This document shows, piece by piece, positions 2,084 to 33,058 of a DNA stretch of 33,058 nucleotides. The notes under the pieces were generated by a model. That model ran no database searches. It was not told the origin of the DNA and saw only the letters and a program-made list of their open reading frames with translations. How positions within the stretch are numbered: the stretch's first letter is position 1; every line of letters begins with the position of its first letter. Both the position numbers and the translations under genes were made by a program. Location of the stretch: the IMG/VR virus record IMGVR_UViG_2061766007_001416; one strand, given 5' to 3'. This stretch comes from an uncultured virus (IMG/VR IMGVR_UViG_2061766007_001416). Taxonomy: Duplodnaviria > Heunggongvirae > Uroviricota > Caudoviricetes.

Positions 2084-2084
2084 C

Positions 2085-3090: not shown

Positions 3091-3094
3091 TTTT

Positions 3095-4049: not shown

Positions 4050-4068
4050 AATTAAGAGGTGAATACAA

Positions 4069-4769: not shown

Positions 4770-4773
4770 GAAC

Positions 4774-8957: not shown

Positions 8958-9173
8958 NNNNNNNNNNNNNNNNNNNNNNNNNNNNNNNNNNNNNNNNNNN
9001 NNNNNNNNNNNNNNNNNNNNNNNNNNNNNNNNNNNNNNNNNNNNNNNNNNNNNNNNNNNNNNNNNNNNNNNNNNNNNNNNNNNNNNNNNNNNNNNNNNNN
9101 NNNNNNNNNNNNNNNNNNNNNNNNNNNNNNNNNNNNNNNNNNNNNNNNNNNNNNNNNNNNNNNNNNNNNNNNN

Positions 9174-9940: not shown

Positions 9941-9950
9941 NNNNNNNNNN

Positions 9951-11023: not shown

Positions 11024-11064
11024 TGCTGCACACATTTGAATTTAACGGTAAAAANNNNNNNNNN

Positions 11065-11824: not shown

Positions 11825-11825
11825 A

Positions 11826-13259: not shown

Positions 13260-14354
13260 TGCTTTATAATTCAAACACGACACCACAAAAATTCTTTGAT
13301 AATAACGGGTTGGGTTTTATAAAAAACAGCACAAAATGTATTGCAAGCGAGGAAAGAAACGGCAAATACGAGTTGGATTTGGAAGTGTTAACAAGCGACA
13401 GGTTATCAAGTTGTATTGTGCCGGGAATGTTTGTNNNNNNNNNNGTTAGATACGGCTCAAATATTAGCTCATATCATCAAGATAGTGACATCTCGACTGT
13501 TTATACACATTTAATGCCTTATGCGGTGCTTCCTCTTGTGCATTATGAAGTCAATAAAGATAAGGCAATTATTGGCGAACGTACGCTATATAATTATGCC
13601 CCAATTGAATTAGGAAACACTTCATTAACGTATAAGCGAGCTTTGCCTTATGATTTTTCCGAGAAATTTACAGAAGAACATGATCATATCCATTTTAACA
13701 CGTTCGGTGGTGCATGGTTAAACACAAACGAATTACTTAACAAACTCCAAACAGAAGCCGAAAAATACATCCGAGAAAATCAAGCGGCACTAACAGACAG
13801 ATCTGTAAATATCACAATAGATGTTGCCGCCACGCTTAANNNNNNNNNNGCTTCCTGTGGTTACATACGAAAATGATGGCTATAGCCTAAAAGATATAGC
13901 CACGCTTAGAGAAGAAACCCTATATTCTGTTGCAGTTTTGATTCCAGGCAGCACATTGACTTACGGAAGAGCTTTGCCTTATGATTTTTCCGATAAATTT
14001 ACAGAAGAACATGATCATATCCATATAACTAATGGTGTTCACGCAAACTATCGTGACCTGATAGATAAACTCCAAGCGGAAGCCGAAAAATACATCCGAG
14101 AAAATCAAGCGGCGCTAACAGACAGATCTGTAAATATCACAATAGATGTTGCCGCCACGCTTAACACTCTCAGAAACTGCCATTTGTGCGATACTGTAAA
14201 AGTCTGCTTTGAACCATTAGGATTTACAACAAATGCAAAAATCATAAAAACTGAATACGATTGCTTAAACGAACGTTACACCAAGCTTGAATTGGGTACG
14301 GCTAAAAAAAACATTGCTGACTTGTTTGACGGCAAAAACATAGGGGGTGCGTAA
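13260..14354 (+). CDS. Tail hub/endopeptidase-family (Tal-like) protein, gapped mosaic of alleles
   Basis: DNNGLGFI...EERNGKYELDLE N-terminus, YGSNI...VYTHLMPYA, LCDTVKV...AKIIKTEYDCLNERYTKLELG C-terminus. Confidence 0.8.
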
Positions 14355-14407
14355 GTTGCACATAGACGAATNNNNNNNNNNTTTGTTTGACGGCAAAAAC
14401 ATAGGGG

Positions 14408-15019
14408 GTGCGTAAGTTGTACATAGACGAATACTTAACGCTTGATTTGTCAGAAAACAAATATTTAGACTTTATAAACATAAAGCAAAATGAAAACGGC
14501 GTTAGAGATATCTATATTAATTTGACTTTTAACGGCGACCCTATAACTTTGGGATCTGGCGTTTACCCTGAGGCTGAAAGTTTTCCTATAACCGGACAAA
14601 CGCACGCTGCATATGTTAACGCAAGTGTAAACGGAGTAATTACGGCATACAGACAAGGTTGTTCAATTAGTGACGACCAGGTGATTGTTAATGTAAGCAG
14701 CGATTTGTCACGAGTCGCAGGCATGGAATACTGCGAATTAAAAATTGTGAATTTGAGTGTAACAGATCAAACAATAACTGAAAAAGTGGCATACAGCGCA
14801 ACATTTTTGCTAAATGTAGAGCAATCTGTGCTAAACCGAAACACAAATGATTATTTGCCGAACTCGAATTTAGAAAAAGAGTTGCAGGAAATAAAAGACA
14901 GGTTAGACAGATTAGAAGCCGGCAGTAATATTTTTGCTGGAATTGCTGTCGAGCATGTTTTACAGAATATTGTGAGTGAGTCAGTTGCAGGGACGGCAAC
15001 GGGCGGAGTACTTTTCTAG
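14408..15019 (+). CDS. Baseplate upper protein (BppU-N-like)
   Basis: GTG start after AGGGG; LTLDL...IKQNENGVRDIYINL resembles the BppU N-terminal motif; short coiled coil near the C-terminus; follows Tal. Confidence 0.6.
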   Translation: MRKLYIDEYLTLDLSENKYLDFINIKQNENGVRDIYINLTFNGDPITLGSGVYPEAESFPITGQTHAAYVNASVNGVITAYRQGCSISDDQVIVNVSSDLSRVAGMEYCELKIVNLSVTDQTITEKVAYSATFLLNVEQSVLNRNTNDYLPNSNLEKELQEIKDRLDRLEAGSNIFAGIAVEHVLQNIVSESVAGTATGGVLF

Positions 15020-15144
15020 GCAAACGAATGAGGTGGTTAAATGGATATTTATAAATCAGAACACGCAGTTTACGCATATAATGTTTTTACACGGCTCNNN
15101 NNNNNNNAGGCGGCGCTGGCTATAGCTAATTATGGGGTGGTTAA

Positions 15145-15815
15145 ATGGATGTTTATAAATCAGAATCCGCAGTTTACGCATATAATGTTTTTACACGGCT
15201 CAAACATATTTTTGACGTAATTTACGATTGGTCAAATGTGGAAACAGGGACAAATTACGAAAGGTACTATTTAAAAAATTATTTATATTTTGAAATTTGC
15301 AATGCGCCAACAGACGGTGTTAATGCCAGGGTGTCAGTAGTCTGGGATCTAAATAGNNNNNNNNNNCGTAATGCGCCAACGGACGGTGTTAATGCCAGGG
15401 TGTCAGTAGTCTGGGATCTAAATAGTGAAGAGGGTGGAACTCCGGTTTACGCACAATATGATTTCCAAGATAATTTTGCACACATAGAGGTTTACAAAAC
15501 TGACAGCACTGTATTTATTTGCTTTTCCCAAGGTCTTGAACCGGCAAATGTATCGGTTACTTATATGCCAACATTTATAATCAATACCGTAAGTTTCTAT
15601 GACGATGTTCACGTTATAAGCGATATATATGACACATCAGTGAAAGTTTATGGCGACTTTGATTATGCTGGCGTAGCGCCACAGATTGGCATCCATGTAC
15701 GTTACGGCTCGGAGTATACATTCAATATTTTAACAACACAAGTTGTGCCGTTTTATAATGTACATGGAGTTAACAAACAATATGACAATTTGTATCAAAT
15801 ATTATATTCGGACAA
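15145..15815 (+). CDS. Putative tail-tip/receptor-binding accessory protein (gapped; second allele start at 15041-15097)
   Basis: Aromatic- and beta-rich ORF with RBS GGGGTGG after the BppU-like gene. Function inferred from position only. Confidence 0.4.
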
Positions 15816-15825
15816 NNNNNNNNNN

Positions 15826-16995
15826 TTTTATACGATTTAGGCGCTGGAGTTTCAATAGCAGCAACCCCACAAGAAATTTTTGATGAAATATTAACACCTA
15901 TGGATCNNNNNNNNNNAAGCAAAAGCAAATCCGCATGATGATCCGCAGATTTTTGAAATTTATCAAACATCTGCGGATGATAAAAAAATTACAGCTAAGG
16001 GGCGGCATTTAAGATATATTGCTTATGGAAATGCGTTTAGGGATTTATACAATACAGGCGCTGGAGTTGCAAGAGCAGCAACCCCACAAGAAATTTTTAA
16101 CGAGATATTAACGCCTTATGTCGGCTATCCTACAATGCTTTTGTTTGATAATAATTTTGAGCTTTATTCTGACATAGAAACTGAAAATTACGTTCATGCA
16201 GGAGAGCAAAGACTTGTTCGTTTTGGCGAATTTCTTCAAGGACTAAAGGGTTCAATGCTTGACGTTTTTGGCGGCGAGCTTTATTTTGATAATTTCAGAA
16301 TTGAGCTATTGAAAAATCGTGGTTCGGATACGGNNNNNNNNNNGAAAAACGGTTAGTCCGGCTAGGAGAATTCCTTCAAGGTTTAGAGGGCTCAATGCTT
16401 GATGTGTTTGGCGGTGAATTCCGTTTTGATAATTTCAGAATTGAGCTATTGAAAAATCGTGGTTCTGATACGGGTATCGCTGTTAGATACGGCTCAAATA
16501 TTAGCTCATATCAACAAGATAGTGATATTTCAACTGTTTATACACATTTACTGCCTTATGCGGTTTTGCCTTTGGTGTTGTCTGAAACGTCCAAAGATAA
16601 GGCAACTCTTGGTGAAAGAACAATTTACAGTTATTCCCCAATTGAATTAGTAAACACTTCATTAACGTATAAGCGAGCTTTGCCTTATGATTTTTCCGAT
16701 AAATTTACANNNNNNNNNNTTTGCCTCTGGTGTTGCATGATCAGGACGGAGATAAGTCAACTCTTGGTGAAAGAACACTTTACAGTCTTTCCCCAATTGA
16801 ATTAGGAAACACTCCATTAACGTATAAGCGAGCTTTGCCTTATGATTTTTCCGATAAATTTACAGAAGAACATGATCATATCCATATTAGCACTTACGAT
16901 TATACATGGCTAAACGAAAGCGAATTACTTGACAAACTCCAAACAGAAGCCGAAAAATACATCCGAGAAAATCAAGCGGCGCTAACAGACAGATC
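15826..16995 (+). CDS. Additional allelic fragments of the Tal-like protein
   Basis: KANPHDDPQIFEIY, GSMLDVFGGExxFDNFRIELLKNRGSDTG and RALPYDFSDKF, shared with or complementary to 13260-14354. Confidence 0.75.
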
Positions 16996-17630
16996 NNNNN
17001 NNNNNNNNNNNNNNNNNNNNNNNNNNNNNNNNNNNNNNNNNNNNNNNNNNNNNNNNNNNNNNNNNNNNNNNNNNNNNNNNNNNNNNNNNNNNNNNNNNNN
17101 NNNNNNNNNNNNNNNNNNNNNNNNNNNNNNNNNNNNNNNNNNNNNNNNNNNNNNNNNNNNNNNNNNNNNNNNNNNNNNNNNNNNNNNNNNNNNNNNNNNN
17201 NNNNNNNNNNNNNNNNNNNNNNNNNNNNNNNNNNNNNNNNNNNNNNNNNNNNNNNNNNNNNNNNNNNNNNNNNNNNNNNNNNNNNNNNNNNNNNNNNNNN
17301 NNNNNNNNNNNNNNNNNNNNNNNNNNNNNNNNNNNNNNNNNNNNNNNNNNNNNNNNNNNNNNNNNNNNNNNNNNNNNNNNNNNNNNNNNNNNNNNNNNNN
17401 NNNNNNNNNNNNNNNNNNNNNNNNNNNNNNNNNNNNNNNNNNNNNNNNNNNNNNNNNNNNNNNNNNNNNNNNNNNNNNNNNNNNNNNNNNNNNNNNNNNN
17501 NNNNNNNNNNNNNNNNNNNNNNNNNNNNNNNNNNNNNNNNNNNNNNNNNNNNNNNNNNNNNNNNNNNNNNNNNNNNNNNNNNNNNNNNNNNNNNNNNNNN
17601 NNNNNNNNNNNNNNNNNNNNNNNNNNNNNN

Positions 17631-18331
17631 GGAAAAAGTAAATGCAATTCTTGGCACGTCCTTGACTAATACAACGACTAAAGAGAACAATTCCTCGAGT
17701 GACTCGACAACAAGCAAAACACTATATCGTGTTCAGATAGGTGCGTTTTCTGAAAAGTCAAATGCAGATACGCAGCTGTTTAACGTTAAAGCTAAGGGAT
17801 TTAAAGACGCATTTGTTACAAAGGTTGACACATGGTATAAAGTACAAGTAGGGGCTTTTGAGAATAAAACCAATGCTGAAANNNNNNNNNNCGCGTTTTC
17901 CGAGAAGTCAAATGCAGATATACAGCTGTTTAACGTTAAAGCTATGGGATTTAAAGACGCATTTGTTACAAAGGTTGACAAATGGTATAAAGTACAAGTA
18001 GGAGCTTTTGAGAATAAAACCAATGCTGAAAAGCAGCTTGAAAAGGTAAAGCAGGCAGGATTTAAAGATTGCTTTATTGCTACAAACGGGATCGTAAAGA
18101 AGTCCGTTACAGAGATCGCAAAAGAAGTAATTGCCGGGAAATGGGGTGCCGGAGCTGAGAGAAAAACGGCTCTTGAAAAGGCTGGGTATGANNNNNNNNN
18201 NCGTTACAGAGATCGCAAAAGAAGTAATTGCCGGAAAATGGGGTGCCGGAGCTGAGAGAAAGACGGCTCTCGAAAAGGCAGGATATGATTATAACGCTGT
18301 ACAAGCTAAGGTCAATGAGCTGATGAAATAA
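17631..18331 (+). CDS. Endolysin C-terminal cell-wall-binding region (two SPOR-like repeats plus a CW_7/Cpl-7 repeat); catalytic domain lost in the gap
   Basis: [15 protein letters not shown] and [16 protein letters not shown] (SPOR); [39 protein letters not shown] (CW_7). Confidence 0.85.
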
Positions 18332-18348: not shown

Positions 18349-18723
18349 ATGAGAGAACTTAACACAATTCAGAAGAGAGAAAAACTTAACAAGGTCTATG
18401 CTATTGGTGAAAAAGGCAACGGCGGGGCAAATCATCAGTACAATGTTGTAGGTTTGCCTATTGACGAAAATGATATGGGTATCTTTCAGGAAGTAATCCA
18501 TTTTCAAAACGGCGCAAGAAATCTTCCTGACAGCGTTTACGGCGTACTTGATACAGATTTGCTTGAAATTGTTAGAGACCGCCTAAAGGGTTTTCAAAGC
18601 GGCGAGTTTTCTTGCCGTGAGAATGCCTGTGCTCTAACTCATATCGAGGAGGCACTTATGTGGCTGAATCGCAGAGTTGAGGACAGGATTGAAAGGAACG
18701 TTCTCGGCACAAACAATAAATGA
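18349..18723 (+). CDS. tad1: Thoeris anti-defence protein 1 (Tad1), cyclic-nucleotide signal sponge
   Basis: 124 aa with [22 protein letters not shown] and [55 protein letters not shown], closely matching clostridial Tad1 as I recall it; RBS AGAGG. Confidence 0.9.
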
Positions 18724-18796: not shown

Positions 18797-19042
18797 ATGG
18801 ACAACTGGTTTAAATGGCTCTGGAGCGTAATTCTGGGCGGTTTAGCAACGTTTTTCGGGCAGTATGGATTATTCATTGTTCTTGTTGCCGAGGCTATTTC
18901 TATTTCCGAAAATCTTTATCTTATTAACCCAGAAAGTTTTCCGCGGTGGATTGCACGAATGTTGAAAGTCGCAAAAGGGAAAATTGAGAAAGAGGGGTCA
19001 GACTATGACGAAACCGGAAACGATGACAATACAACCAAATGA
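18797..19042 (+). CDS. Holin-like membrane protein, apparently internally shortened
   Basis: N-terminal hydrophobic segment followed directly by EAISISENL...P.W, the C-terminal motif of the phage_holin_4_1 family; lies in the lysis region. Confidence 0.55.
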   Translation: MDNWFKWLWSVILGGLATFFGQYGLFIVLVAEAISISENLYLINPESFPRWIARMLKVAKGKIEKEGSDYDETGNDDNTTK

Positions 19043-19301
19043 TCCTATACCTTATGTTGCATATGAGGCGGCTATTGCAAGGCTTGACCATACAAATAGA
19101 AGACTTTGGATTTTAATTCTTGTTCTTATTGCTGTTATAGGCTTTTTGATATGGCGAGATATGCAATATGAAGATGTTGTGACGACTACAGAAACAGTAA
19201 CGCAAGATACAGGAAATGGCAATGGCAATAACACGTTTAGTGGCGATTTTATAGGCGGTGATTACTACGGCACGACAAACAGTAACACGAACACGAATTA
19301 A
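19005..19301 (+). CDS. Single-pass membrane protein of unknown function
   Basis: ATG at 19005 after GAGGGG; IPYVAYEAAIARLDHTNRR, TM segment LWILILVLIAVIGFLIW, T/N/G-rich tail. Confidence 0.7.
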   Translation: MTKPETMTIQPNDPIPYVAYEAAIARLDHTNRRLWILILVLIAVIGFLIWRDMQYEDVVTTTETVTQDTGNGNGNNTFSGDFIGGDYYGTTNSNTNTN

Positions 19302-19392
19302 AAAACGCCGTAAAAAAACAGGCGGCGATACAGGTTATAAGAAATGCCCTAACTGCGGCGGAGATGGACGTGTGAGGATTCGAAAAACATGA
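19267..19392 (+). CDS. Small basic CxxCxGxG peptide (41 aa) with ACG at the start position; not in the ORF track
   Basis: (T/M)ARQTVTRTRIKKRRKKTGGDTGYKKCPNCGGDGRVRIRKT; SD-like AGGCGGTGA upstream; stop overlaps the next ATG (ATGA). Confidence 0.45.
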   Translation, partial: TARQTVTRTRIKKRRKKTGGDTGYKKCPNCGGDGRVRIRKT

Positions 19393-19613
19393 AAATAAAC
19401 GCTGTTTTTAATTCTGATGATTTTTGCGTTTTTGTTGAAAAATATTGCCACAAAATGACACATAGGCCGATTTTGATTGACCGATATTGCAACGGGCTGA
19501 CCTTCTCAGAACTCTCCGACAAATACGACTACCCAGAAAGAAATATAAAATCAATAGTTTATAAGCACGATGACTTAATCATAAAATTTGTAAAAACATT
19601 AGAGCAGGGCTGA
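19389..19613 (+). CDS. Small sigma70-region-4-like HTH regulator
   Basis: ILIDRYCNGLTFSELSDKYDYPERNIKSIVYK fits the R4-type HTH pattern. Confidence 0.65.
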   Translation: MKINAVFNSDDFCVFVEKYCHKMTHRPILIDRYCNGLTFSELSDKYDYPERNIKSIVYKHDDLIIKFVKTLEQG

Positions 19614-19692: not shown

Positions 19693-19721
19693 TTGACATT
19701 AGTATATACTTATGTTATAAT
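19693..19721 (+). promoter_or_regulatory. Consensus sigma-A/70 promoter with a palindromic operator in the spacer
   Basis: TTGACA(19693)-17 bp-TATAAT(19716) with extended -10 TG; ACATTAGTAT/ATACTTATGT (19696-19715) is a 9/10 inverted repeat. Confidence 0.9.
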
Positions 19722-19771
19722 ATAATCAATATAAGGGAAGGAAAACCGACAGAACCGAAGGAGATAAGATT

Positions 19772-20119
19772 ATGAAAAAAGCAGTTATGACAAGAGCATG
19801 GGAAATCTACAGAACACTCACAGGCGATAGACGCACAAAGTTGAGCATGGCACTTCGTAGAGCATGGGCAGAGATTAAGGCAGCTAACGAGAAAAAAGAG
19901 TTTGGCGATCACGAAGTAATAGTAATCGAGGGCATGAGCAGAAATCAGGTATGGTCATTTAACCGTTGGGAAAAGTACGGCAAGCGCAGAATTTACATCA
20001 ATGAATCAAAGTGGGGTAAGATTGGTTATATCGACATCGACACGAAAGAGTATTGCGGAAACCGTCACGACGCATATATGAGCGTTATTAACAGCTTTTT
20101 AGCATCCTACAATTTTTAA
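19772..20119 (+). CDS. Small early-type hypothetical protein
   Basis: 115 aa, RBS AAGGAG; helical N-terminus MTRAWEI...LRRAWAEIK and C-terminal RWEKYGKRRIYIN...GYID. Confidence 0.8.
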   Translation: MKKAVMTRAWEIYRTLTGDRRTKLSMALRRAWAEIKAANEKKEFGDHEVIVIEGMSRNQVWSFNRWEKYGKRRIYINESKWGKIGYIDIDTKEYCGNRHDAYMSVINSFLASYNF

Positions 20120-20194
20120 TCCAACGAACAAAAAAATGAATATTAATAATCTGTGTTGATGTAGAAAAATGGATAGAGAAAAAGAGGTGATTGA

Positions 20195-20383
20195 ATGGCA
20201 ACAGAAAGCGAGATCAAAGCCGTCAACAAGTTTAACAAAGAAAAAACAAAAGTTATCCCCGTAAGATTAAATTTCAAGACGGATGCGGACATCTTATCGC
20301 ACCTTGAAACCGTATCATCAAAAATGGGTTATATAAAAAAACTTATCAGGGATGATATGGTAAAGAACAGAAAGCAGGGTTAA
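20195..20383 (+). CDS. Ribbon-helix-helix/Arc-like DNA-binding protein (putative autorepressor)
   Basis: 62 aa, RBS GAGGTG; beta strand KVIPVRLN followed by two helices ending YIKKLIRDDM. Confidence 0.6.
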   Translation: MATESEIKAVNKFNKEKTKVIPVRLNFKTDADILSHLETVSSKMGYIKKLIRDDMVKNRKQG

Positions 20384-20447
20384 CGCATAGTATAATAAAG
20401 TCATCAAAGGGAAGGAAAACCGACAGAACCAGAAAGGAAGCAAGATT

Positions 20448-20804
20448 ATGGCTAAAGAGATTATGATGAGAGAGCATTTTTATGAAGAAGAATACGATCG
20501 CACGGGATATGAAATCGTAGTAGATGGGGCAACAGTTGGCACGATAGAAATTATCGATAACTTCAATGAGTACAACGACGTATGTTATATTGAAAGAATC
20601 GACATCGAAGAAGCATACAGAAATCAGGGTATCGGCAGTAAAGTCCTTACATGTGTTCTACGAGAGGAATTTCATTACTTATTTGTTGTTGTTGCACCCG
20701 ACAACGCTGACGCACAAAGACTTTACGAGAGACTTGGAGTGGCAGGCTATAACGCTTATGGTCTCGACTATATGGATCAGGGTTACGGAATATATTCAAT
20801 CTAA
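20448..20804 (+). CDS. GNAT-family acetyltransferase
   Basis: Motif A RIDIEEAYRNQGIGSKVL and motif B NADAQRLYERLG. Confidence 0.85.
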   Translation: MAKEIMMREHFYEEEYDRTGYEIVVDGATVGTIEIIDNFNEYNDVCYIERIDIEEAYRNQGIGSKVLTCVLREEFHYLFVVVAPDNADAQRLYERLGVAGYNAYGLDYMDQGYGIYSI

Positions 20805-20899: not shown

Positions 20900-20964
20900 G
20901 CACTTTTTGCGTACTTTTAACGGCACTTTTCGTCATTTCGGAAAGTGCCGTTTTCTTTTATACT
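20900..20964 (+). promoter_or_regulatory. Putative regulator-binding repeats and -10 box upstream of the 7-gene operon
   Basis: GYACTTTT at 20900, 20911 and 20923; inverted repeat 20919-20952; TATACT at 20959-20964 with no good -35. Confidence 0.5.
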
Positions 20965-20996: not shown

Positions 20997-21377
20997 ATGT
21001 GGAAAAAATACAACCCAAATCCCCGAGGAAACGAATACGCTGGAGATTGCGTAATTAGAGCGATAACAAAAGCGACAGGGCAAAGCTGGGAAAGCGTTTT
21101 TGCTGGGTTGTCGCTTGAAGGATATTATTCGGGAGATTGGGGAAACTCAAACGGCGTATGGGATACATATTTAAGAAAAAAAGGGTTTAGAAGATACATT
21201 TTGCCAAATACATGCCCGTATTGTTACACTATTGCAGACTTTGCAAGAGATTACCCGATCGGCACTTACATTCTTGGGACCGGGAAGCATGCCGTGACGG
21301 TTGTTGACGGCAATTACTATGATTCATGGAATTCAGGGGAAGAAATGCCGATTTATTACTACACAAAGGAGCTTTGA
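20997..21377 (+). CDS. Conserved hypothetical protein with a papain/C39-like Cys-His-Asp signature
   Basis: YNPNP...GDCVIRAI, GKHAVTVVDG and YYDSWNS give Cys at a helix start, then His, then Asp. Confidence 0.55.
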   Translation: MWKKYNPNPRGNEYAGDCVIRAITKATGQSWESVFAGLSLEGYYSGDWGNSNGVWDTYLRKKGFRRYILPNTCPYCYTIADFARDYPIGTYILGTGKHAVTVVDGNYYDSWNSGEEMPIYYYTKEL

Positions 21378-21379
21378 CA

Positions 21380-21874
21380 ATGGCATACAACAGCTTTTAT
21401 CAGCCTTATCAGCAAATAGCGTACAATCAGCAGTATCAGAATTATGTTCCACCGATGAATCAGCAGGCGTTTCAGCAGGTGCAGAACACGCAGCAACCAA
21501 CAATTCAAAACGGCGGCTTTGTGAGCGTTCCGTCAGAAACGGTGGCGCGAAACTATCCCGTTGCGCCGGGGAATAGCGTAACATTTATTGACGAAAACGC
21601 ACCGTATTGCTATACAAAAACGATGGGGTTTTCACAGCTTGATCGTCCGCGCTTCGAAAAATTCCGACTTGTTAAGGAGGAGGAAACGGCACAACCTACA
21701 CAGACAGGCGCAGACGCACCGAAGGCTGACTATGCGCTGAAATCGGAACTACAAGCGGTAAAAGACGAATTTTCAGCAGAAATTTTAAATTTAAAATCGA
21801 TTTTTGAAAAAATTTCTCAAAAGAATGAAAACAAAACAGAAAATATAAAGAAAGAAGTTGAAACAAATGCGTAA
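21380..21874 (+). CDS. Hypothetical protein with Q/P/Y-rich N-terminus, small beta domain and C-terminal coiled coil
   Basis: ATG at 21380 after AAGGAG; YQPYQQ...QQPT, then ARNYPVAPGNSVTFID...YTKT. Confidence 0.8.
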   Translation: MAYNSFYQPYQQIAYNQQYQNYVPPMNQQAFQQVQNTQQPTIQNGGFVSVPSETVARNYPVAPGNSVTFIDENAPYCYTKTMGFSQLDRPRFEKFRLVKEEETAQPTQTGADAPKADYALKSELQAVKDEFSAEILNLKSIFEKISQKNENKTENIKKEVETNA

Positions 21875-22142
21875 CCCATTGATTCAAAACAAACAAAGCG
21901 GTGTATCTTTTAACGATTTTATGAGCAAATTTCAGCAATTTTCGGGAAATCCCATGCAGATGTTATCACAGAGTGGCTTGAACATTCCTCAGGGCATGAA
22001 CAATCCCGGTGAGATCATACAGCATTTAATGAACTCCGGCAAGCTGTCTCAGGAGCAGTATTCACAGTTACAGCAAACAGCTCAAAATATAAGAAATAAC
22101 CCCATGTTTCAACAGCAAATGCAGATGATGGGGAAAAAATAA
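21867..22142 (+). CDS. Small Q/M/N-rich helical hypothetical protein
   Basis: MRNPL...NPGEIIQHLMNSGKLSQEQYSQLQQ; overlaps the upstream stop. Confidence 0.75.
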   Translation: MRNPLIQNKQSGVSFNDFMSKFQQFSGNPMQMLSQSGLNIPQGMNNPGEIIQHLMNSGKLSQEQYSQLQQTAQNIRNNPMFQQQMQMMGKK

Positions 22143-22206
22143 CAGAGGTATTAAAGCCAGTGCGCAGGGCTTTCAATATAAATCTTTTTAAGGAAGGTAT
22201 TAAAAT

Positions 22207-23265
22207 ATGGCACTTACAGACGAAAACGGCGGCAACGGCATGATCATGCCCGTACAGCCAATGGGCGGTTACGGCTACGCTATGCCTTACGGCGGCAATT
22301 TTGGCGGCGGCTTTGGCTTCGGTGATGACTGGATTGTTCTATTTCTTATCGCTATGATGTTCGGCGGCGGTTGGGGCATGGGCGGCTTCGGCGGCGGCTT
22401 CGGCGGCGGCTGGGGCGGCGGCTTTGGCAATATGTTTGAATTTCCGTGGCTGCTTAACGGTCAGCAGAACGTACTTAATGGCGTCAACGCTAACACTAAT
22501 GCAGGATTCAATCAGGCAGCTTTAACCTCAGCAATCGGAGATCTGAACAACACCGTTGTTAGTGGCTTTGGAGATGTTCAACTTGGTATTGCAGGAGTTA
22601 ATCAGAATGTTTGTCAAACAGGTTCGGCAATTACTAACGCAGTTAATCAGGGATTTGCAAGTACAAATCTCGGTATGTGTCAAGGCTTCAACGGCGTTAC
22701 AAATGCCGTTACAGGCGCGCAGAACGCTCTTGCTCAACAGATGTACAGTAACGAGATTGCCAACCTTAACCGTTCCTTTGCGGAGCAGACCGCAAACACT
22801 CAGGGCTTCAACAGTGTACAGTCTCAGCTTGCTCAATGCTGCTGCGACAATAGGCTTGCAACAAATGATCTCAAATACACTATTGCAACAGAAGCTTGTG
22901 CAGATAGAGCAAACAGCACACAGAATACTCAGTCCATTCTTAACCTTGTCAATTCGGGCATTCAGTCAATCAAAGATCAGCTTTGTCAAGACAAGATTGA
23001 TGCAAAGAATGACGAAATTGCACAACTCCGTCAGGAAATCCTTTACACTCGTGGTCAGGCTGCGGCTGAAAGCATTTATCAGCGTGGGCAGAATTCTCAG
23101 GATGTACAGACTGCTCAGATTCTTGCAGGTCAGGCAGCAATACCGGGTCAGGTATATACACGTCTTAATGAATGCCCTGTAAGCACGGTTCCTGTATATG
23201 GTAGGCAACCGATTTTTACTTGCAACAATAACGGCTGCGGTTGCGGCTGCGGCGGTAATTTTTAA
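22207..23265 (+). CDS. Gly-rich hydrophobic N-terminus plus long N/Q-rich coiled coil, Cys-rich; function unknown
   Basis: 352 aa, RBS AAGGAAGG; WIVLFLIAMMFGGGWGMGGFGGG, repeated (Q/A/S)GF motifs, QCCCD, C-terminal GCGCGCGG. Confidence 0.85.
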   Translation: MALTDENGGNGMIMPVQPMGGYGYAMPYGGNFGGGFGFGDDWIVLFLIAMMFGGGWGMGGFGGGFGGGWGGGFGNMFEFPWLLNGQQNVLNGVNANTNAGFNQAALTSAIGDLNNTVVSGFGDVQLGIAGVNQNVCQTGSAITNAVNQGFASTNLGMCQGFNGVTNAVTGAQNALAQQMYSNEIANLNRSFAEQTANTQGFNSVQSQLAQCCCDNRLATNDLKYTIATEACADRANSTQNTQSILNLVNSGIQSIKDQLCQDKIDAKNDEIAQLRQEILYTRGQAAAESIYQRGQNSQDVQTAQILAGQAAIPGQVYTRLNECPVSTVPVYGRQPIFTCNNNGCGCGCGGNF

Positions 23266-23277
23266 GGCGGTGAGGTT

Positions 23278-23742
23278 ATGGCTTGTGAATTCTCGAATAA
23301 CCTCACTCAGACCGTCAACCCTGGCGAATCCGTAATATTCACAGAATCGCCCGTACCTTGTACGCGCGGATTTGTCCGTCACAGAGACGACACTGGAAAC
23401 TTTCTTCTTCGAGGAAATGTGCGAAGAAATAATTGCGGCTGCTGCCCCAATTCTGCAAGATATCTTGTTGATTTTGGAGCGAACATTGCTATTCCAACAG
23501 GTGGCACAGTTGCTCCTATATCGCTTGCACTGACTCTTGACGGTGGTACAGTTCCCACGACACAAATGACAGTAACCCCGGCGGCGGTTGAGGAATTTTT
23601 CAACGTTTCAGACGCTACAATAGTTAGTGTGTGGCGTGGTTGTTGTCAGTCGTTGACGGTCAGAAACATTTCCGATCAGCCTATTCTTGTTCAGAACGCT
23701 AATATCATTTTTAGCAGACCGGACTTGAATGTGACATATTAA
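23278..23742 (+). CDS. All-beta protein, possibly BclA-C/C1q-like jelly roll
   Basis: 154 aa; QTVNPGESVIF start, alternating beta strands (ARYLVDFGANI, ISLALTLDG, LTVRNIS, VQNANIIF), CGCC and GCC clusters. The fold call is by eye. Confidence 0.6.
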   Translation: MACEFSNNLTQTVNPGESVIFTESPVPCTRGFVRHRDDTGNFLLRGNVRRNNCGCCPNSARYLVDFGANIAIPTGGTVAPISLALTLDGGTVPTTQMTVTPAAVEEFFNVSDATIVSVWRGCCQSLTVRNISDQPILVQNANIIFSRPDLNVTY

Positions 23743-23755
23743 GGGGGGTAGACGA

Positions 23756-24175
23756 ATGCACATGTATGAAGAGCTTAAAGAAATGCTCTGTAAGGAGCTT
23801 GAAGAAATCACACGCAAAGGCGAGCTTACAGCAGGCAGCCTTGACACTGTGGATAAACTTACTCACGCTATTAAGTCCATTGACACAATCGCTGCTATGG
23901 AAGAGTATAGCAATGATTATAATTATCGTGGCTCTTATGATAGAGAGAGTGACGGCATGAGCAGCGTAAGACGTAGAACGTATGATGGTCGCTCCTACGC
24001 AAGAGGCAGAAATGCAAAGCGTGACAGCATGGGTAGATATAGCCGGGGCGGCTACTCCTATGACGATGCTAAGGACGATATGATTAATGATTTGCACGAG
24101 CTTATGCAGGATACACACGACGAACGTACAAAGCAGGAGTTTAAAAAGTTTATCAACAAACTTGAAACTATGTAA
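23756..24175 (+). CDS. Hypothetical protein with helical ends and an R/G/S/Y-rich central region
   Basis: 139 aa, RBS AAGGGGG; YRGSYDR...RSYARGRNAKRDSMGRYSRGGYSY. Confidence 0.8.
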   Translation: MHMYEELKEMLCKELEEITRKGELTAGSLDTVDKLTHAIKSIDTIAAMEEYSNDYNYRGSYDRESDGMSSVRRRTYDGRSYARGRNAKRDSMGRYSRGGYSYDDAKDDMINDLHELMQDTHDERTKQEFKKFINKLETM

Positions 24176-24189
24176 GGTGGTGGCTATCC

Positions 24190-24510
24190 TTGATAACTGA
24201 GCGTGACTTAGACGAGGCTATCGCAGAGTGTCAGGGGCAGCCTAATCCAAACGCTAATACCTGTATTAAGTTGGCAGCTTATTACATCATTAAAGATTAT
24301 ATGATTGATAGTAAAAATGATATACCTAACGATTATTCTTTTAATTCTAAACTTACAGAACAAAAGATTAATTACAGCAGCGGTACATCTTTTTCCAATA
24401 TAATCAAAGATAAAAGCATTGATGAAGTATTAGAGATAATGGACGATTTAATGACTACTCTACAAGTGATTAATCCTAGATTATACGATAGCGTGATGAG
24501 GAAATTATAA
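24190..24510 (+). CDS. Helical hypothetical protein, last gene of the operon
   Basis: TTG start after AAGGTGG; 106 aa; followed by a terminator. Confidence 0.75.
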   Translation: MITERDLDEAIAECQGQPNPNANTCIKLAAYYIIKDYMIDSKNDIPNDYSFNSKLTEQKINYSSGTSFSNIIKDKSIDEVLEIMDDLMTTLQVINPRLYDSVMRKL

Positions 24511-24517: not shown

Positions 24518-24550
24518 AAAAGCCTACAATAATTTGTAGGCTTTTTGTTT
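24518..24550 (+). terminator. Intrinsic (possibly bidirectional) terminator
   Basis: AAAAGCCTACAA-TAAT-TTGTAGGCTTTT followed by TGTTT. Confidence 0.8.
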
Positions 24551-24595: not shown

Positions 24596-24624
24596 TTGAC
24601 ATTTGCCTCTTAATGATGTATAAT
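24596..24624 (+). promoter_or_regulatory. Consensus sigma-A/70 promoter
   Basis: TTGACA(24596)-17 bp-TATAAT(24619) with an AT-rich upstream region. Confidence 0.9.
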
Positions 24625-26867: not shown

Positions 26868-27995
26868 ATGGGTAAAAATCTTATGGATTCAGATGTAAAA
26901 GCTGAAAGAGATAAGAAAATATCTTATTTTAAAGTTAAACAAAAACAGTCTTATGAATTTAAGGTTGCGTATGCTAGATCTAGAGCAAGAGAGTTTGTAA
27001 AAGAATGCGATAAACGTGGTATTAATTATCACATATCGGTTGGAGGACTGGACAGCATAACTTTATTGCTTTTTTTACGTGAGTATTGTTTTTTGAGCGA
27101 TATTCCTGCTATTTCTTGCAGTTATCTTGAAGACCCGTCAATTATAAAAATTCATAAAGCTTTGGGTGTCGAATGTGTTAAGCCTTTAGTTAAGGAGGTA
27201 ACTCCTGACGGTAAAAATAAATACTGGACGAAAAAAGATGTTATTCAGGAGTTTGGCTTTCCTGTTCTTAGTAAGGAAATAGCAGATAAAATTGAAACGT
27301 TAGCTAATCCTACTGAAAAAAATAAAACTGTTCGTCACGCAATTATGACAGGAGAAACTGGAGAATTGGGCGGTTTTCAAAAACACAGTCGTATGAAACT
27401 TGCTGATAAGTGGTTAAACAAATTTGGCGGTTACGGTAACGAGTACGAGGGAACTAATTATGGTATACCTGATTTTAAGGTATCATCAAAATGTTGCTAT
27501 TATTTAAAGGAAAAACCCTGTGATGATTGGGCTAGAGAGCATAACAGTGTTCCTTTTTTAGGGCTTATGGCTTCCGAGGGTGGAAGAAGAGCAAAATCAT
27601 TGATGATTAACGGTTGTAATTATTTTGGAAAATCAACTATAAGGAGTTGTCCTTTTGCAATATTCAGCCGTCAGGACTTGTTACAACTTGCCTTAGATTT
27701 AAATGTGCCTGTTCCTGAAATATACGGAGAAATCAAGTGTAAATCTGATGGTACTTTGTACACCACTAAGGCACAGCGTACCGGTTGCTCAATGTGTGGT
27801 TTTGGAATACAGATTGAAAAGCGTCCGCACCGTTTTGATTTACTTTATGACCGTAACCCCAAAGAATGGGAGTATCTGATGTTTCATTACTGTAAGGACA
27901 GTAACGGTAATGATTTCGGGTGGGCAAAAGTTCTTGATTATATCGGTGTAGAGTGGCAACCCGAAGGATATGGAAAAAATGAGATTGAGTGTTAA
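26868..27995 (+). CDS. PAPS-reductase-family (PP-loop, Cys-cluster) protein
   Basis: 375 aa; ISVGGLDS PP-loop, SSKCCYYLKEKP, RTGCSMCGFG. Confidence 0.85.
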   Translation: MGKNLMDSDVKAERDKKISYFKVKQKQSYEFKVAYARSRAREFVKECDKRGINYHISVGGLDSITLLLFLREYCFLSDIPAISCSYLEDPSIIKIHKALGVECVKPLVKEVTPDGKNKYWTKKDVIQEFGFPVLSKEIADKIETLANPTEKNKTVRHAIMTGETGELGGFQKHSRMKLADKWLNKFGGYGNEYEGTNYGIPDFKVSSKCCYYLKEKPCDDWAREHNSVPFLGLMASEGGRRAKSLMINGCNYFGKSTIRSCPFAIFSRQDLLQLALDLNVPVPEIYGEIKCKSDGTLYTTKAQRTGCSMCGFGIQIEKRPHRFDLLYDRNPKEWEYLMFHYCKDSNGNDFGWAKVLDYIGVEWQPEGYGKNEIEC

Positions 27996-30096: not shown

Positions 30097-31366
30097 TAAT
30101 CAATTGCAGACAAGAAAAGTGCCGTTTTCGGCAAAAATCCAGTCGACAGGGATTAAGAAGCTCATTAATGAAACGCTGGGCGACCCTAAACGCTCTATGC
30201 GATTTATTTCGTCAATAACATCAGCAGTGGCGGTCAATTCTGCATTACAGGAATGTGAGTTTAATACCGTCCTTACGGGTGCATTATTGGGCGAAAGCCT
30301 TAACCTCAGTCCGTCTCCTCAGTTGGGTCAGTATTACCTTGTACCGTTTAAGAACCGCAAAAAAGGCACTACGGAAGCACAATTTGTCCTTGGCTTAACC
30401 TAATGGGTCAAGTAAAACCGTGTGAACCCTATTACTCAGGGGTGTACAGTTTTATGTGCTAACGGTGGAAACCCTCCACAGCCTCTATATCCTAAAAAGA
30501 ATTGACATAAGGGCAACACCGTGCTATAATGTATTTGAGGTGATACATTATGACTGGCATTTACTTAATAAAAAATCTTGTAAATGGAAAAAAATATATC
30601 GGTCAAAGCGTAGATATACAACGCAGAAAAAAAGAACACAAATATATTTGCAGCGAATCCAACCAAAGCCTTAAACGTGCGTATAATAAGTACGGATATG
30701 ATAATTTCTCTTTTGAAGTCTTGGAAGAATGTGACAAGTCTCTGTTAGACGAACGGGAAATTTTTTGGATAGAAAAATTAAAGCCCGAATATAACAGGAC
30801 GCGTGGGGGACGTGGAGTTACCGGAATATCTTTTAGCGAGGAAACAAAGGAAAAATTGAGAGAAGCCGGGAAAAAACAATGGGACTCCAAAACAGAAGAA
30901 GAAAAAGCTCAGATTATAAAGAACAATCTTAAAGGGCCGCAGGTAGGACACAGTGTTTCTGAGGAAACAAGAGAAAAGCTCAGAAACGCAAATCTTGGCA
31001 AAAAGCAAAGCCAAGAAACGATAAAAAAGAGATGTGCAAAGCTTAAAGGCCGACACAGAGATAATAGTTATCGTAATAAACCAGTCATTTGTATTGAGAC
31101 AGGCGAAGTATTTAAGTCTATAAAAGACGCAAATGAAAAATACGGACTGTCTACGTTATGCGGACACTTGAAAGGTAAATATAAGACTTGCAAGGGAAAG
31201 CATTACCGATACTTGTAGTGTAACGACTAACAGTGATGAATGTAACTGTGTAGAGTGGAAGATGAGTTACCACTCCAAGCGCACGGCATCTTGTGAGATG
31301 AAGAGATAGTCTAATCCAACGCAAATGGTAAATCGTTGGTATAAATGATAAAGGTTACTTACAGCT
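30089..31366 (+). CDS. RecT-family ssDNA-annealing recombinase, spliced: exon 1 30089-30395, exon 2 from 31348 (runs into a gap)
   Basis: LNLSPSPQLGQYYLVPFK...AQFVLG, and joining the exons gives GYKGYLQ, matching GYKGYIQL in the uninterrupted allele at 31378-31553. Confidence 0.85.
30502..30530 (+). promoter_or_regulatory. Consensus promoter inside the intron, upstream of the homing endonuclease
   Basis: TTGACA(30502)-17 bp-TATAAT(30525) with extended -10 TG; RBS GAGGTG before ATG 30550. Confidence 0.8.
30550..31218 (+). CDS. Intron-encoded GIY-YIG homing endonuclease with NUMOD3-like repeats and a C-terminal HTH-like region
   Basis: GIYLIKNLVNGKKYIGQS; SEETKEKL and SEETREKL repeats; KPVICIETGEVFKSIKDA. 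Confidence 0.92.
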   Translation: MTGIYLIKNLVNGKKYIGQSVDIQRRKKEHKYICSESNQSLKRAYNKYGYDNFSFEVLEECDKSLLDEREIFWIEKLKPEYNRTRGGRGVTGISFSEETKEKLREAGKKQWDSKTEEEKAQIIKNNLKGPQVGHSVSEETREKLRNANLGKKQSQETIKKRCAKLKGRHRDNSYRNKPVICIETGEVFKSIKDANEKYGLSTLCGHLKGKYKTCKGKHYRYL

Positions 31367-31377
31367 NNNNNNNNNNT

Positions 31378-31925
31378 CCACAACTAGGACATTACTACCT
31401 TGTACCATTCAACAACCGAAAACAAGGCACTACAGAAGCACAGTTTATCTTAGGCTATAAAGGATACATTCAGCTGGCTGCACGTTCAGGCAATTACAAG
31501 CATATTAACGTCATGGAGATCAAAGAGGGCGAGCTTGTTTCGTATAATCCGTTNNNNNNNNNNTGCTATCCGTTCGGGCAACTACAAAAAAATTAACGTC
31601 ATGGAGATCAAAGAGGGCGAGCTTGTTTCGTATAATCCGTTTGACGAAGAGATTATTCTCAATCCAATTCAGGATGTTGACGAGCGTGAGAAAACCCCGA
31701 CAATAGGCTATTACGCAATGTTTGAATACACCAACGGATTTAAAAAGGTTCTTTATTGGAGCAAAGCTCAGATGTTAGCTCACGCTGACAAATACAGCAA
31801 GGCATTTTCTGTTAATGCAACACGCGGAAAATATCCGAAAGTATCATATGCAGACTATGCAGCAGGGAACTACAACAAAGATGATGAATGGTTGTATTCT
31901 TCATTTTGGTACAAAGATTTTGACT
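31378..31925 (+). CDS. RecT-family recombinase, intron-less allele and downstream fragments
   Basis: PQLGHYYLVPFNN...AQFILGYKGYIQLAARSG; IGYYAMFEYTNGFKKVLYW...FWYKDFD. Confidence 0.85.
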
Positions 31926-31935
31926 NNNNNNNNNN

Positions 31936-32120
31936 AACGCTCAGGGCTTAAACGAACCCAATGTGAAAGAAAAATCGGCTACAGTAAAGAGGCGTTTTGG
32001 AAGTGGGAAACAGGCGTGAGGATTCCTAACGGAAAAGCCTTGATGGATTTAGCAACGTTTTTTAACGTATCTACCGACTATCTTTTAGGGTTGACAGATA
32101 AGAAAGAGAGGTTGAAGTAA
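31936..32120 (+). CDS. XRE-family HTH protein (5' end in gap)
   Basis: KWETGVRIPNGKALMDLATFFNVSTDYLLG. Confidence 0.75.
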
Positions 32121-32987
32121 TTGATCGACGGCATTATTGTAGTTAAGCAACTCCCCGTTATTGAGGAACGATTGAAAGATGTCAAAACCGACATAGAAAG
32201 CCGTACATCTGCGGCGGTCGCTATGGATTGCACAGAAGAGAACTACAAGGACGTAAAGAAAATTCGTGCAGAACTCAACAAAGAGTATAAAGAGTATGAG
32301 GATTTCAGAAAGGCTGTTAAAAAGACGGTAGAAACACCTTACAAGAATTTTGAGGAAGTATTCAAGGAATGTGTCACTGACTCCTTTAAAGCCGCTGACA
32401 GCAAGCTGAAAGCAAAAATCAACAACGTTGAGGACAGTTTGAAAGCACAGAAGCGTGACAATGTTTTGAAATTCGCTGAGGAGCTTAAAGCTTCATATTC
32501 TCTTGACTGGCTCAACATTAACAGAGTTATGCCTAATATNNNNNNNNNNTTACCGAACTAAACGCAAAGATTGACAGCGTAGAAGACGGCTTGAAAGCTT
32601 CAAAGCGTGAAAACGTGTTGAAATTTGCAGAGGAATTGAAGGCTTCATATTCTCTTGACTGGCTCAACATTAACAGAGTTATGCCTAATATTACTTTATC
32701 AGCAAGTGAATCAAGTTTGATTCAGAAAGTTTCTGACGAACTCGAGAGGATTAACACAGATGTACAGGCTATTACCGATATTGAGGTTTTGGCTGAATAC
32801 AAGAAGTCTTTAAACCTTGCACAATCTAATTTGACTGTTGCAAACAGGCGAAAAGAAATTGAAGAAGCAAGACTTGAAGCCGAACGCAAGGCACATCAGG
32901 AAGAGATTAAGCAGGAAACCGAGAAAAAGGTTGAAACGCTTGCACCGCCTGTAGTGGAAGAAAAACCGCCAAAAGAAGAGGTCAAGC
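32121..32987 (+). CDS. DUF1351-like protein, further alleles (gapped)
   Basis: IIVVKQLPVIEE...DVKKIRAELNKE is homologous to 29299-30096; the segment around the gap at 32540-32549 is repeated. Confidence 0.7.
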
Positions 32988-33058
32988 NNNNNNNNNNCAA
33001 AGGAGATGTTTGAAGATGATCGATAACCTTTTTGGTAAACGTTTGAGAGACCTGCGTG

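What the first reader, a model, noticed from the sequence alone, without database searches (positions are those of the whole stretch)
20997..24510. Uncharacterised 7-gene operon that looks like a self-contained particle or assembly system (top candidate)
Seen: seven tightly packed co-directional genes in gap-free sequence, with their own upstream repeats and terminator, none resembling standard virion, lysis or replication genes. The parts are a Cys-His-Asp protease-like protein, two Q/P/N-rich low-complexity proteins, a Gly-rich hydrophobic plus coiled-coil protein, a Cys-rich all-beta protein, an RG/SY-rich putative nucleic-acid binder and a helical protein. I recall similar unannotated clusters in gut Clostridia prophages but know no function for them. 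Inference (speculative): a processing enzyme, scaffolds, a membrane-inserting spike with a head subunit and a nucleic-acid-binding protein could form a membrane-associated particle, a delivery device or a spore/cell-surface structure. Being flanked by Tad1 and two acr-like units also allows a counter-defence or host-manipulation role.
Basis: partly seen in the sequence, partly recalled or inferred. Interest (0 to 1): 0.85.

Follow-up and report, generated by a model that had tools for sequence, protein, structure and literature searches.

The report
Gut-virus stalk with swappable head cassette
Seven neighbouring genes of a cattle-rumen phage form a real, self-regulated module, shared by very many gut viruses, that most likely builds a protein stalk with an exchangeable tip and a processing enzyme, but nobody has yet shown what the structure does.

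Summary
The seven ORFs are real and travel as an ordered, mobile cassette: 65-74 of 80 viral loci picked by g4 carry each of g1, g2, g3, g5 and g6, and 42 carry g7. This scan found the cassette before on at least five other genomes. g5 has the BclA/C1q fold. g4 is a long helix whose length varies in steps of 7 and 11 residues, with a short Gly-flanked hydrophobic segment and a Pro/Cys tail. Added here: (1) two slots are filled by mutually exclusive, unrelated proteins in 129 loci: peptidase (Cys-His-Asp 113, HExxH 11, both 0) and head (g5 102, g5b 20, both 0); (2) all 7 head-less copies also lack the g4 tail (one or two events); (3) promoter spacing co-varies with the type of upstream HTH regulator; (4) g4 relatives occur in crAss-like, Bacteroides, Clostridium and Methanomassiliicoccales viruses and, more weakly, in 220 records of mostly enterobacterial phages, which excludes a general spore role. 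Best reading (0.45): a late-made, peptidase-processed adhesive fibre with a detachable head. Binding, oligomer state, location and function are untested. A counter-defence role is not supported by the neighbours.

The parts
19389..19613 (+). Stand-alone sigma70-region-4-like HTH, last gene of the lysis operon; probable dedicated regulator of the cassette (inferred activator), here separated from g1 by a 3-gene insert
   Evidence: Pfam Sigma70_r4 E 9e-4, below cut-off; a homologue scores E 2.7e-7 above cut-off; family present within 2.6 kb upstream in 58 of 145 loci, GerE-like alternative in 24, none in 63
20900..20926 (+). GCAC/GTAC direct repeats at 11-12 nt spacing, candidate regulator boxes
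   Evidence: sequence; [TG]GCAC in 10 of 32 sigma4-type loci against 0 of 14 GerE-type loci
20919..20964 (+). 14-bp palindrome with TCAT loop and T tract centred over the -35 position, followed by -10 box TATACT (20959-20964)
   Evidence: centre-to--10 distance 23-24.5 nt in 24 of 32 sigma4-type loci with a detected site (13 further loci had none) against 25 of 191 control hairpins
20997..21377 (+). g1, 126 aa, putative papain-fold (C39-like) cysteine peptidase; replaced by an HExxH metallopeptidase in some cassettes
   Evidence: invariant D17 C18 R21 H98 G105 D109; Atlas neighbours carry PF03412 (11%) and DUF261 (32%); slot exchange
21380..21874 (+). g2, 164 aa, Q/Y/P-rich N-terminus, small conserved core and C-terminal helix; function unknown, inferred adaptor or scaffold
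   Evidence: phrog_21718; 69 of 80 loci; alignment A4
21867..22142 (+). g3, 91 aa, Q/N/M-rich helical protein with weak STI1/DP likeness; inferred chaperone for the hydrophobic segment of g4 (lead only)
   Evidence: PF17830 in 5 of 42 homologues, best E 4e-4, and PF23195 in 2 of 42
22144..22193 (+). Conserved hairpin with GYGCRCA loop followed by an A/U-rich stretch, just upstream of g4
   Evidence: TGC[GA]CA in 56 of 122 intergenic regions against mean 4.2 in shuffles; stem of 5 bp or more in 64 of 71 against mean 36, max 46 with swapped arms; no Rfam match
22207..23265 (+). g4, 352 aa, core protein: Gly-rich N-terminus with an 8-12 residue hydrophobic run, long non-heptad helix with QxxxCCC motif, Pro/Cys-rich tail; inferred stalk
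   Evidence: model helix 139-322, pTM 0.25; lengths step by 7 and 11, period 3.63 and 3.8, not 3.5; hydrophobic run; 8000 or more clusters, capped
23278..23742 (+). g5, 154 aa, stand-alone BclA-CTD/C1q/TNF jelly roll; inferred trimeric head; replaced by unrelated g5b in other cassettes
   Evidence: pLDDT 88; Foldseek 9h38 E 6.5e-8; VIA Z 16.5, rmsd 1.9, 124 aligned; PF18573 in 5 of 65 homologues; exchange
23756..24175 (+). g6, 139 aa, helical ends around a Y/S/R/G-rich linker with RDSMGRYS motif; net acidic; function unknown
   Evidence: 71 of 80 loci
24190..24510 (+). g7, 106 aa, optional helical protein
   Evidence: 42 of 80 loci; 63 of 129 complete loci; alignment A6
24518..24549 (+). Terminator-like hairpin (12-bp stem, T tract) closing the cassette
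   Evidence: read from sequence; not listed by the scan

Best explanation
A portable late-gene module of gut viruses that builds a fibre or spike from two separate chains. Shown by computation: the genes move together; g5 has the C1q/BclA fold; g4 is one long helix whose length changes in whole turns; head and peptidase are exchangeable slots; promoter geometry follows the regulator type. Inferred steps: (1) the small HTH gene at the end of the lysis operon is made late and switches on the cassette promoter, and copies without it sit inside head, tail or lysis genes and are read with them; (2) the hairpin before g4 raises or controls g4 output; (3) g4 forms a parallel, probably trimeric coiled-coil stalk (about 27 nm if the 184-residue helix is straight), locked by its Cys clusters and anchored by the Gly-flanked hydrophobic segment, with g3 shielding that segment; (4) a g5 trimer, or g5b, docks on the Pro/Cys tail, much as ExsF takes a kinked peptide in its trimer cleft; (5) g1 or the metallopeptidase trims a subunit to mature or release the structure; (6) g2, g6 and g7 act as base or assembly factors. 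The most likely job is adhesion of progeny virions or lysis-derived membrane particles to gut surfaces or cells, as an accessory and not as the infection-essential tail fibre.
For: Synteny. Fold of g5. Helix, 7/11-residue length steps and non-heptad period. Head slot: g5 102, g5b 20, neither 7, both 0 of 129; g5b is unrelated to g5. All 7 head-less loci lack the g4 Pro/Cys tail, while 125 of 126 loci with a head keep it. One g4-g5b fusion is on record (P0131, single contig). Peptidase slot: g1 113, HExxH 11, neither 5, both 0. Endolysin is the commonest neighbour (49 loci). 14 of 16 sampled regulator-less loci have a head, tail, packaging or lysis gene within a few ORFs, and tail-fibre genes split the cassette in L072 and L106. 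Enterobacterial relatives follow the lateral tail-fibre genes. ExsF precedent: passages of PMC12357932.
Against: No g4-g5 contact or oligomer state could be predicted, and the g4 model has pTM 0.25 with no fold match. The tail/head co-loss is only one or two evolutionary events, and L152 keeps g5 with an altered tail. The hydrophobic run is 8-12 residues, short for a membrane-spanning anchor, and there is no signal peptide in view. Non-heptad periodicity fits helical tubes as well as fibres. The enterobacterial and archaeal relatives have no detectable g5, g5b or peptidase next to g4. No virion proteomics was found for any carrier. g2, g6 and g7 remain unexplained. Late genes make up a large part of any phage genome, so late neighbours are expected partly by chance.
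Confidence: 0.45

Rival explanations
1. Protective coat or occlusion-like matrix: g4, g5 and the Q/N-rich proteins form a Cys-cross-linked shell around virions or cell remnants, set by oxygen after leaving the gut, that aids passage between animals.
For: Cys clusters in g4 (CC in 61 of 64, tail with 3 or more Cys in 64 of 64), g5 and g5b; closest solved folds are exosporium proteins; GerE-like second-tier regulator in 24 of 145 loci; carriers with a stated source or host are gut, rumen, faecal or sewage viruses; weak Baculo_PEP_C hit in 4 of 64.
Against: The PEP hit is weak (best E 0.003) and typical of Asn-rich coiled coils; head-less, tail-less cassettes persist; stalk length variation fits a fibre better than a lattice; no such phage coat was found in the papers searched.
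Confidence: 0.17
2. Membrane-penetrating tube or spike: after cleavage by g1, the Gly-rich hydrophobic end of g4 enters a membrane and the N/Q-rich helix forms a channel or fusion-like rod that delivers cargo such as g6, like a DNA pilot protein.
For: Gly-flanked 8-12 residue hydrophobic run; 11-residue steps and period near 3.63, a feature recalled for microvirus H tubes; peptidase slot conserved; GenBank labels crAss relatives 'spike protein/glycoprotein'.
Against: No Microvir_H or fusion-protein family hit in 64 members at E 0.1 or better; no helical hairpin of similar arms and no C-terminal membrane anchor in the model; carriers infect monoderms, diderms and archaea with very different envelopes; the GenBank labels are not discussed in the main text of PMC7886860 and look like coiled-coil similarity calls.
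Confidence: 0.15
3. Intracellular scaffold or condensate for assembly, or an anti-defence or host-manipulation system acting inside the infected cell.
For: Low-complexity Q/N/Y regions in g2, g3 and g6; no signal peptides in view; Tad1/Acb2 and a small insert with strong promoters lie next to the cassette in this window.
Against: These neighbours are not conserved with the cassette; late context; C1q heads and Cys clusters are typical of extracellular structures (established knowledge).
Confidence: 0.13
4. Phage-encoded modification of the host spore coat or exosporium.
For: g5 is closest to F-BclA, BclA and ExsF; GerE-like regulator; many hosts are Clostridia; gut phages do carry sporulation genes (passages of PMC10294663, which has no mention of coat, exosporium or BclA).
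Against: g4 relatives with neighbouring cassette-like genes occur in crAss-like and Bacteroides phages and in Methanomassiliicoccales viruses, whose hosts make no endospores; phage Ceridwen, seen only as lytic, has the full g5 cassette; no collagen stalk.
Confidence: 0.05
5. A chance string of unrelated morons.
For: None of the seven has a curated family; g7 is optional.
Against: Conserved order in more than 100 loci, slot exchange, co-loss and dedicated regulation.
Confidence: 0.01

Closest known systems
BclA and F-BclA of the Bacillus cereus-group exosporium and F-type appendages (PDB 1wck, 9h38; Pfam PF18573)
   Same: g5 has the same C1q/TNF jelly roll (Z 16.0-16.5); a stalk of variable length capped by this head
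   Different: The head is a separate gene; the stalk is alpha-helical, not collagen; the genes are viral, carry a peptidase and a regulator, and the head can be replaced by unrelated g5b
ExsFA/BxpB (PDB 7r1m, 8d02, 9h3d)
   Same: Stand-alone C1q-fold protein (Z 13.9); known to hold a kinked peptide of a stalk protein in its trimer cleft (PMC12357932 passages)
   Different: ExsF is the base anchor in a spore layer; here the partner peptide would be the C-terminal tail of g4, and binding is untested
Phage tail fibres with C1q/TNF-like tips (cyanophage A-1(L) 8ke9, A4 9k09; Sf6 needle knob 3rwn; PRD1 P5 1yq5)
   Same: Viral fibres ending in the same fold (Z 9.6-12.8); some cassettes lie among tail-fibre genes
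   Different: Those are single-chain fibres fixed to one virion type; this cassette moves between siphovirus-like, crAss-like and archaeal viruses and has a hydrophobic N-terminus
Peptidase C39-like papain-fold enzymes
   Same: Invariant Cys-His-Asp in matching order; Atlas neighbours carry PF03412 at 11%; GenBank calls Bacillus phage homologues 'putative peptidase'
   Different: No Pfam hit for g1 or its 63 homologues to a peptidase family; no ABC transporter; substrate unknown
GenBank 'spike protein/glycoprotein' and 'outer capsid protein/viral fiber' of crAss-like phages (phrog_16490 family)
   Same: True g4 homologues (HMM E 6e-23)
   Different: Labels only: the terms do not occur in the main text of PMC7886860 (supplements not read), and no function or cassette is described there under these terms

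Membership tests
BclA/F-BclA collagen-like spore fibres | C-terminal C1q/TNF (BclA_C) fold | tested here: met
   PF18573 in 5 of 65 homologues
BclA/F-BclA collagen-like spore fibres | Collagen GXY stalk in the same chain | tested here: not met
   g5 is a stand-alone 154-aa protein; the 'longer' search gave 1 hit among 8000 candidates, a portal chimera, which is weak evidence; g4 is alpha-helical
BclA/F-BclA collagen-like spore fibres | Chromosomal gene of a spore-forming host | tested here: not met
   found in viral contexts; strong hits in 3 of 300 further Lachnospiraceae-family genomes and not found in 250 and 300 genomes of two other groups
ExsF/BxpB | Stand-alone C1q-fold protein | tested here: met
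   Z 13.9, rmsd 3.1, 135 aligned to 7r1m
ExsF/BxpB | Trimer cleft binding a stalk peptide | not testable with these tools
Peptidase C39-like / papain fold | Conserved Cys-His-Asp triad | tested here: met
   C18, H98, D109 in 64 of 64
Peptidase C39-like / papain fold | Family profile or fold match | tested here: inconclusive
   no Pfam or PDB sequence hit; Atlas neighbours with PF03412 11%; g1 was not folded
Peptidase C39-like / papain fold | Proteolytic activity and substrate | not testable with these tools
   needs assay; transglutaminase or acyltransferase chemistry is not excluded
Class I viral fusion proteins | Gly-rich hydrophobic peptide near the N-terminus | tested here: met
   8-12 residue hydrophobic run between GFGG repeats in 64 of 64
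Class I viral fusion proteins | Heptad repeats folding back as a six-helix bundle, with a C-terminal membrane anchor | tested here: not met
   power at period 3.5 is 0.08 against 0.95-1.5 at 3.63 and 3.8; no C-terminal hydrophobic segment
Microvirus H DNA pilot proteins | N/Q-rich 11-residue-repeat helix after a hydrophobic N-terminus (feature recalled) | tested here: inconclusive
   composition and 11-residue indels fit; no Microvir_H hit among 64 members; fold search had no match at E 0.001
Microvirus H DNA pilot proteins | Ten-helix tube | not testable with these tools
   no multimer prediction available
Baculovirus polyhedron envelope protein | Baculo_PEP_C and PEP_N domains | tested here: inconclusive
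   PEP_C in 4 of 64, best E 0.003; no PEP_N
STI1/DP chaperone domains | STI1-HOP_DP profile match for g3 | tested here: inconclusive
   5 of 42 homologues, best E 4e-4; none for the window's own g3

The most novel reading that the evidence does not exclude
Gut viruses of Bacillota, Bacteroidota, enterobacteria and methanogenic archaea share an undescribed, separately regulated 'very late' assembly system. It makes a non-tail extracellular structure (an adhesive spike-bearing particle or an exosporium-like, disulfide-set coat) that carries progeny between animal hosts, a phage counterpart of spore appendages or insect-virus occlusion bodies.
Probability: 0.25. Interest if true: 0.9.

Novelty: categorically new. 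Interest (0 to 1): 0.7.

Why it matters
How viruses of strict gut anaerobes persist in and pass between animals is an open question, and a dedicated adhesion or protection module would address it. The work here makes it testable in cultured systems: Butyrivibrio phage Ceridwen has the full cassette, and E. coli K-12 phages CAjan and KarlJaspers carry a reduced relative. The label 'categorically new' refers to the combination of parts and its spread; the folds of g5 and probably g1 are known, and the function is not shown.

Tried and rejected
Pfam, NCBIfam and PDB sequence searches gave nothing at cut-off for g1-g7. The Atlas returned only unnamed viral clusters for g4. The fold search with the g4 model had no match at E 0.001 or better. 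g5b has 369 clusters at 50% identity but no PDB match and only unnamed PHROGs; a recalled likeness to a tail-fibre domain found no support in the loci held and g5b was not folded. No convincing fused g4-g5 protein was found, which is weak evidence. Expression: 5 of 22 listed runs are on record as RNA and hold only 6-19% of the words; contigs of four RNA runs cover short pieces of relatives over g4-g7 and some flanking genes, cannot rank genes and may be DNA, so they are not used. Rfam has no match to either hairpin. No complex could be predicted and no own genome is held, so binding, oligomer state and host are open. MAG labels such as Prevotella, Cryptobacteroides or Atopobiaceae may be mis-binned phage contigs; the profile found nothing in 250 and 300 further genomes of those groups, so host breadth rests on the phage records. 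KarlJaspers g4 alone did not beat shuffles on a broad profile (8.7 against max 10.3) whereas CAjan did (23.9 against 7.6). Literature searches for the cassette found nothing relevant; the library lacks most subscription papers, and the CAjan paper, recalled to have virion proteomics, is not held. Supplements were not read for any paper; those of PMC7886860 may explain the crAss labels.


Full report
Observation. The window is a gapped scaffold of a siphovirus-like phage with tail, lysis and replication genes. Its DNA occurs in bovine gut metagenome runs (8 of 22 listed runs hold half of the words or more, 4 of them the possible source sample).

The genes are a unit. Of 80 IMG/VR loci picked by g4 (the best 80 of 230), g1 is in 73, g2 69, g3 65, g4 79, g5 74, g6 71 and g7 42, mostly in the window's order; several misses are contig ends. 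In 50 GTDB loci the counts are 40, 37, 34, 50, 47, 45 and 14, and a second order (g2-like, g4, g5, g6, g1) appears. The cultured Butyrivibrio phage Ceridwen has all seven after its endolysin; passages of its paper (PMC7372960) report only lytic growth and never mention spores. g4 has at least 8000 clusters at 90% identity. It is not a core host gene: strong hits in 3 of 300 further genomes of one Lachnospiraceae-family sample, and none in 250 and 300 further genomes of two other groups. Five earlier notes of this scan describe the same cassette on other genomes; I reuse their stalk-and-head wording and tested the claims myself.

The parts. g5 folds confidently (pLDDT 88) as a C1q/TNF jelly roll closest to F-BclA and BclA (Foldseek E 6.5e-8; Z 16.5 and 16.0), then EDA, ExsFA (Z 13.9) and phage fibre tips. 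g4 is predicted as one helix from 139 to 322 (pTM 0.25) with no fold match. Across homologues its middle part changes length in steps of 7 and 11 residues, and the hydrophobic period is 3.63 and 3.8, not 3.5, which indicates an uninterrupted non-heptad coil. The N-terminal hydrophobic run is 8-12 residues between GFGG repeats; CC occurs mid-helix in 61 of 64 and the tail has 3 or more Cys in 64 of 64. g1 keeps C18, H98 and D109 in 64 of 64. g3 has a weak STI1 likeness (5 of 42). g6 is net acidic with an RDxxGR[YF] motif in 47 of 56.

Slot exchange and co-loss. In 129 de-duplicated loci with enough flank (picked with g4, a tail-less g4 and g5b as queries, so not natural frequencies), g1 is present in 113, an HExxH metallopeptidase in 11, neither in 5 and both in 0. 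The HExxH proteins hit SprT-like and M78 profiles below cut-off and are unrelated to g1. Two unrelated protease types in one slot argue that proteolysis is part of the job. The head slot holds g5 in 102, an unrelated Cys-rich 132-aa protein (g5b) in 20, neither in 7 and both in 0. Among 133 distinct g4 sequences, all 7 from head-less loci lack the Pro/Cys tail, 121 with g5 and 4 with g5b keep it, and 1 with g5 has an altered tail. On the tree the 7 come from one or two events, so this is suggestive only. One database protein fuses g4 to g5b, from a single contig.

Regulation. A small HTH gene lies within 2.6 kb upstream in 82 of 145 loci: sigma70-r4-like in 58, GerE-like in 24. Before the first gene is a palindrome with a T tract whose centre is 23-24.5 nt from a -10 box in 24 of 32 sigma4-type loci with a detected site (13 more had none) and 20.5-22 nt in 10 of 14 GerE-type loci (8 more had none). 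Control hairpins fall in these bins 25 and 31 times of 191. Loop and upstream repeats also differ by type. Related phages are not independent, and a few regulator assignments were to longer proteins. In the window the distance is 23 nt and the HTH gene is separated from g1 by a three-gene insert. A second hairpin before g4 has a conserved GYGCRCA loop (56 of 122 regions against 4.2 by chance) and stems that pair in 64 of 71 against 36 when arms are swapped; in 49 sequences chosen for a clear hairpin each of the four inner pairs takes 5-6 pair types. Rfam does not know it. Endolysin is the commonest neighbour (49 loci), and 14 of 16 sampled regulator-less loci lie next to head, tail, packaging or lysis genes. 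Late expression is inferred from this; RNA data were inconclusive.

Reach of the family. A human-gut g4 finds 78 phage records, including crAss-like phages, a C. perfringens phage and T1-like coliphages. XP41-N3 has g2-g3-g4-g5b and a g7-like gene; cr53_1 has g4 (E 6e-23) followed by a weakly g5b-like gene between lysis and virion genes. The cr53_1 protein finds 45 records, among them Bacteroides phage C3_41T2LP and two Methanomassiliicoccales viruses. The KarlJaspers protein finds 220 records, mostly of enterobacterial phages; in KarlJaspers and CAjan it follows the lateral tail fibre and leads three shared genes unrelated to g5-g7. The QxxxCCC motif and Gly-rich start align across all of them and the Pro/Cys tail across all but vir335; the enterobacterial link is moderate (CAjan 23.9 bits against shuffle max 7.6; KarlJaspers 8.7 against 10.3). 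A general spore role is therefore excluded.

Mechanism. The best reading is a late, peptidase-matured fibre with a detachable, exchangeable head used for adhesion (0.45). A protective cross-linked coat (0.17), a membrane-penetrating tube (0.15), an intracellular or anti-defence system (0.13) and spore modification (0.05) are rivals. Fold, synteny, exchange, co-loss and promoter geometry are computed; binding, oligomer state, cleavage, timing, location and function are inferred.

Comparison and novelty. It works like a BclA/ExsF-type stalk and head (passages of PMC12357932) but fails membership: no collagen, separate head, viral genes. It also fails the heptad and anchor tests for class I fusion proteins. 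GenBank labels crAss relatives 'spike' or 'fiber', but these words are absent from the main text of PMC7886860; passages of the BASEL paper show no discussion of this gene; PMC10294663 does not mention coat, exosporium or BclA. Searches found no description of the cassette, within a library that lacks most subscription papers. Verdict: real, widespread, undescribed in what could be searched, function open; interest 0.7.

Noticed in passing
window 1-17700 and 31300-33058: The scaffold has many N gaps and duplicated fragments of tail, tape-measure and recombination genes, so gene order outside the gap-free stretch may be an assembly artefact.
   Followed up: no
window 18349-18723: Acb2/Tad1 family protein above the Pfam cut-off, directly after the endolysin tail; not a conserved neighbour of the cassette.
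   Followed up: partly
window 19693-20804: Three-gene insert between the HTH regulator and g1: perfect sigma70 promoter at 19693-19721, an identical 24-nt repeat before two of the genes (19733, 20407), a GNAT acetyltransferase and a small protein; anti-defence role untested. A second perfect promoter lies at 24596-24624.
   Followed up: partly
window 18996-19301: Small membrane protein whose family precedes the sigma4-like regulator in 21 loci; may belong to the lysis operon or to the cassette.
   Followed up: no
window 26868-27995: PAPS-reductase-like protein (phrog_424, E 6e-23).
   Followed up: no
L141:4950-5348, L191:4001-4405: g5b, an unnamed Cys-rich beta-type family of 369 clusters at 50% identity with no known fold; worth folding.
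   Followed up: partly
L072:2420-5336, L106:6865-9887, L074:1759-5572: The cassette is split between g3 and g4 by several inserted genes, tail-fibre and tail-collar genes in L072 and L106.
   Followed up: partly
L058, L078, L090, L104, L109, L111: Second gene order (g2-like, g4, g5, a 60-66 aa extra gene, g6, g1); the extra gene also occurs in phage XP41-N3.
   Followed up: partly
L207:4168-5992, L210:3806-5985: Enterobacterial siphoviruses carry a reduced g4 followed by three shared unknown genes (52-68% identical between KarlJaspers and CAjan), and CAjan adds a small Cys-rich ORF; a tractable laboratory model.
   Followed up: partly
P0128, P0132: Single database proteins joining a portal to part of g5, and g5b to a long g6; the first is probably an assembly chimera.
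   Followed up: no
one search hits (Bacillus Tsamsa-like phages, GBK2, Lak phages): g1 homologues also occur in large Bacillus phages and Lak megaphages, where g4 searches gave no hit, so the peptidase family is used outside the cassette.
   Followed up: no
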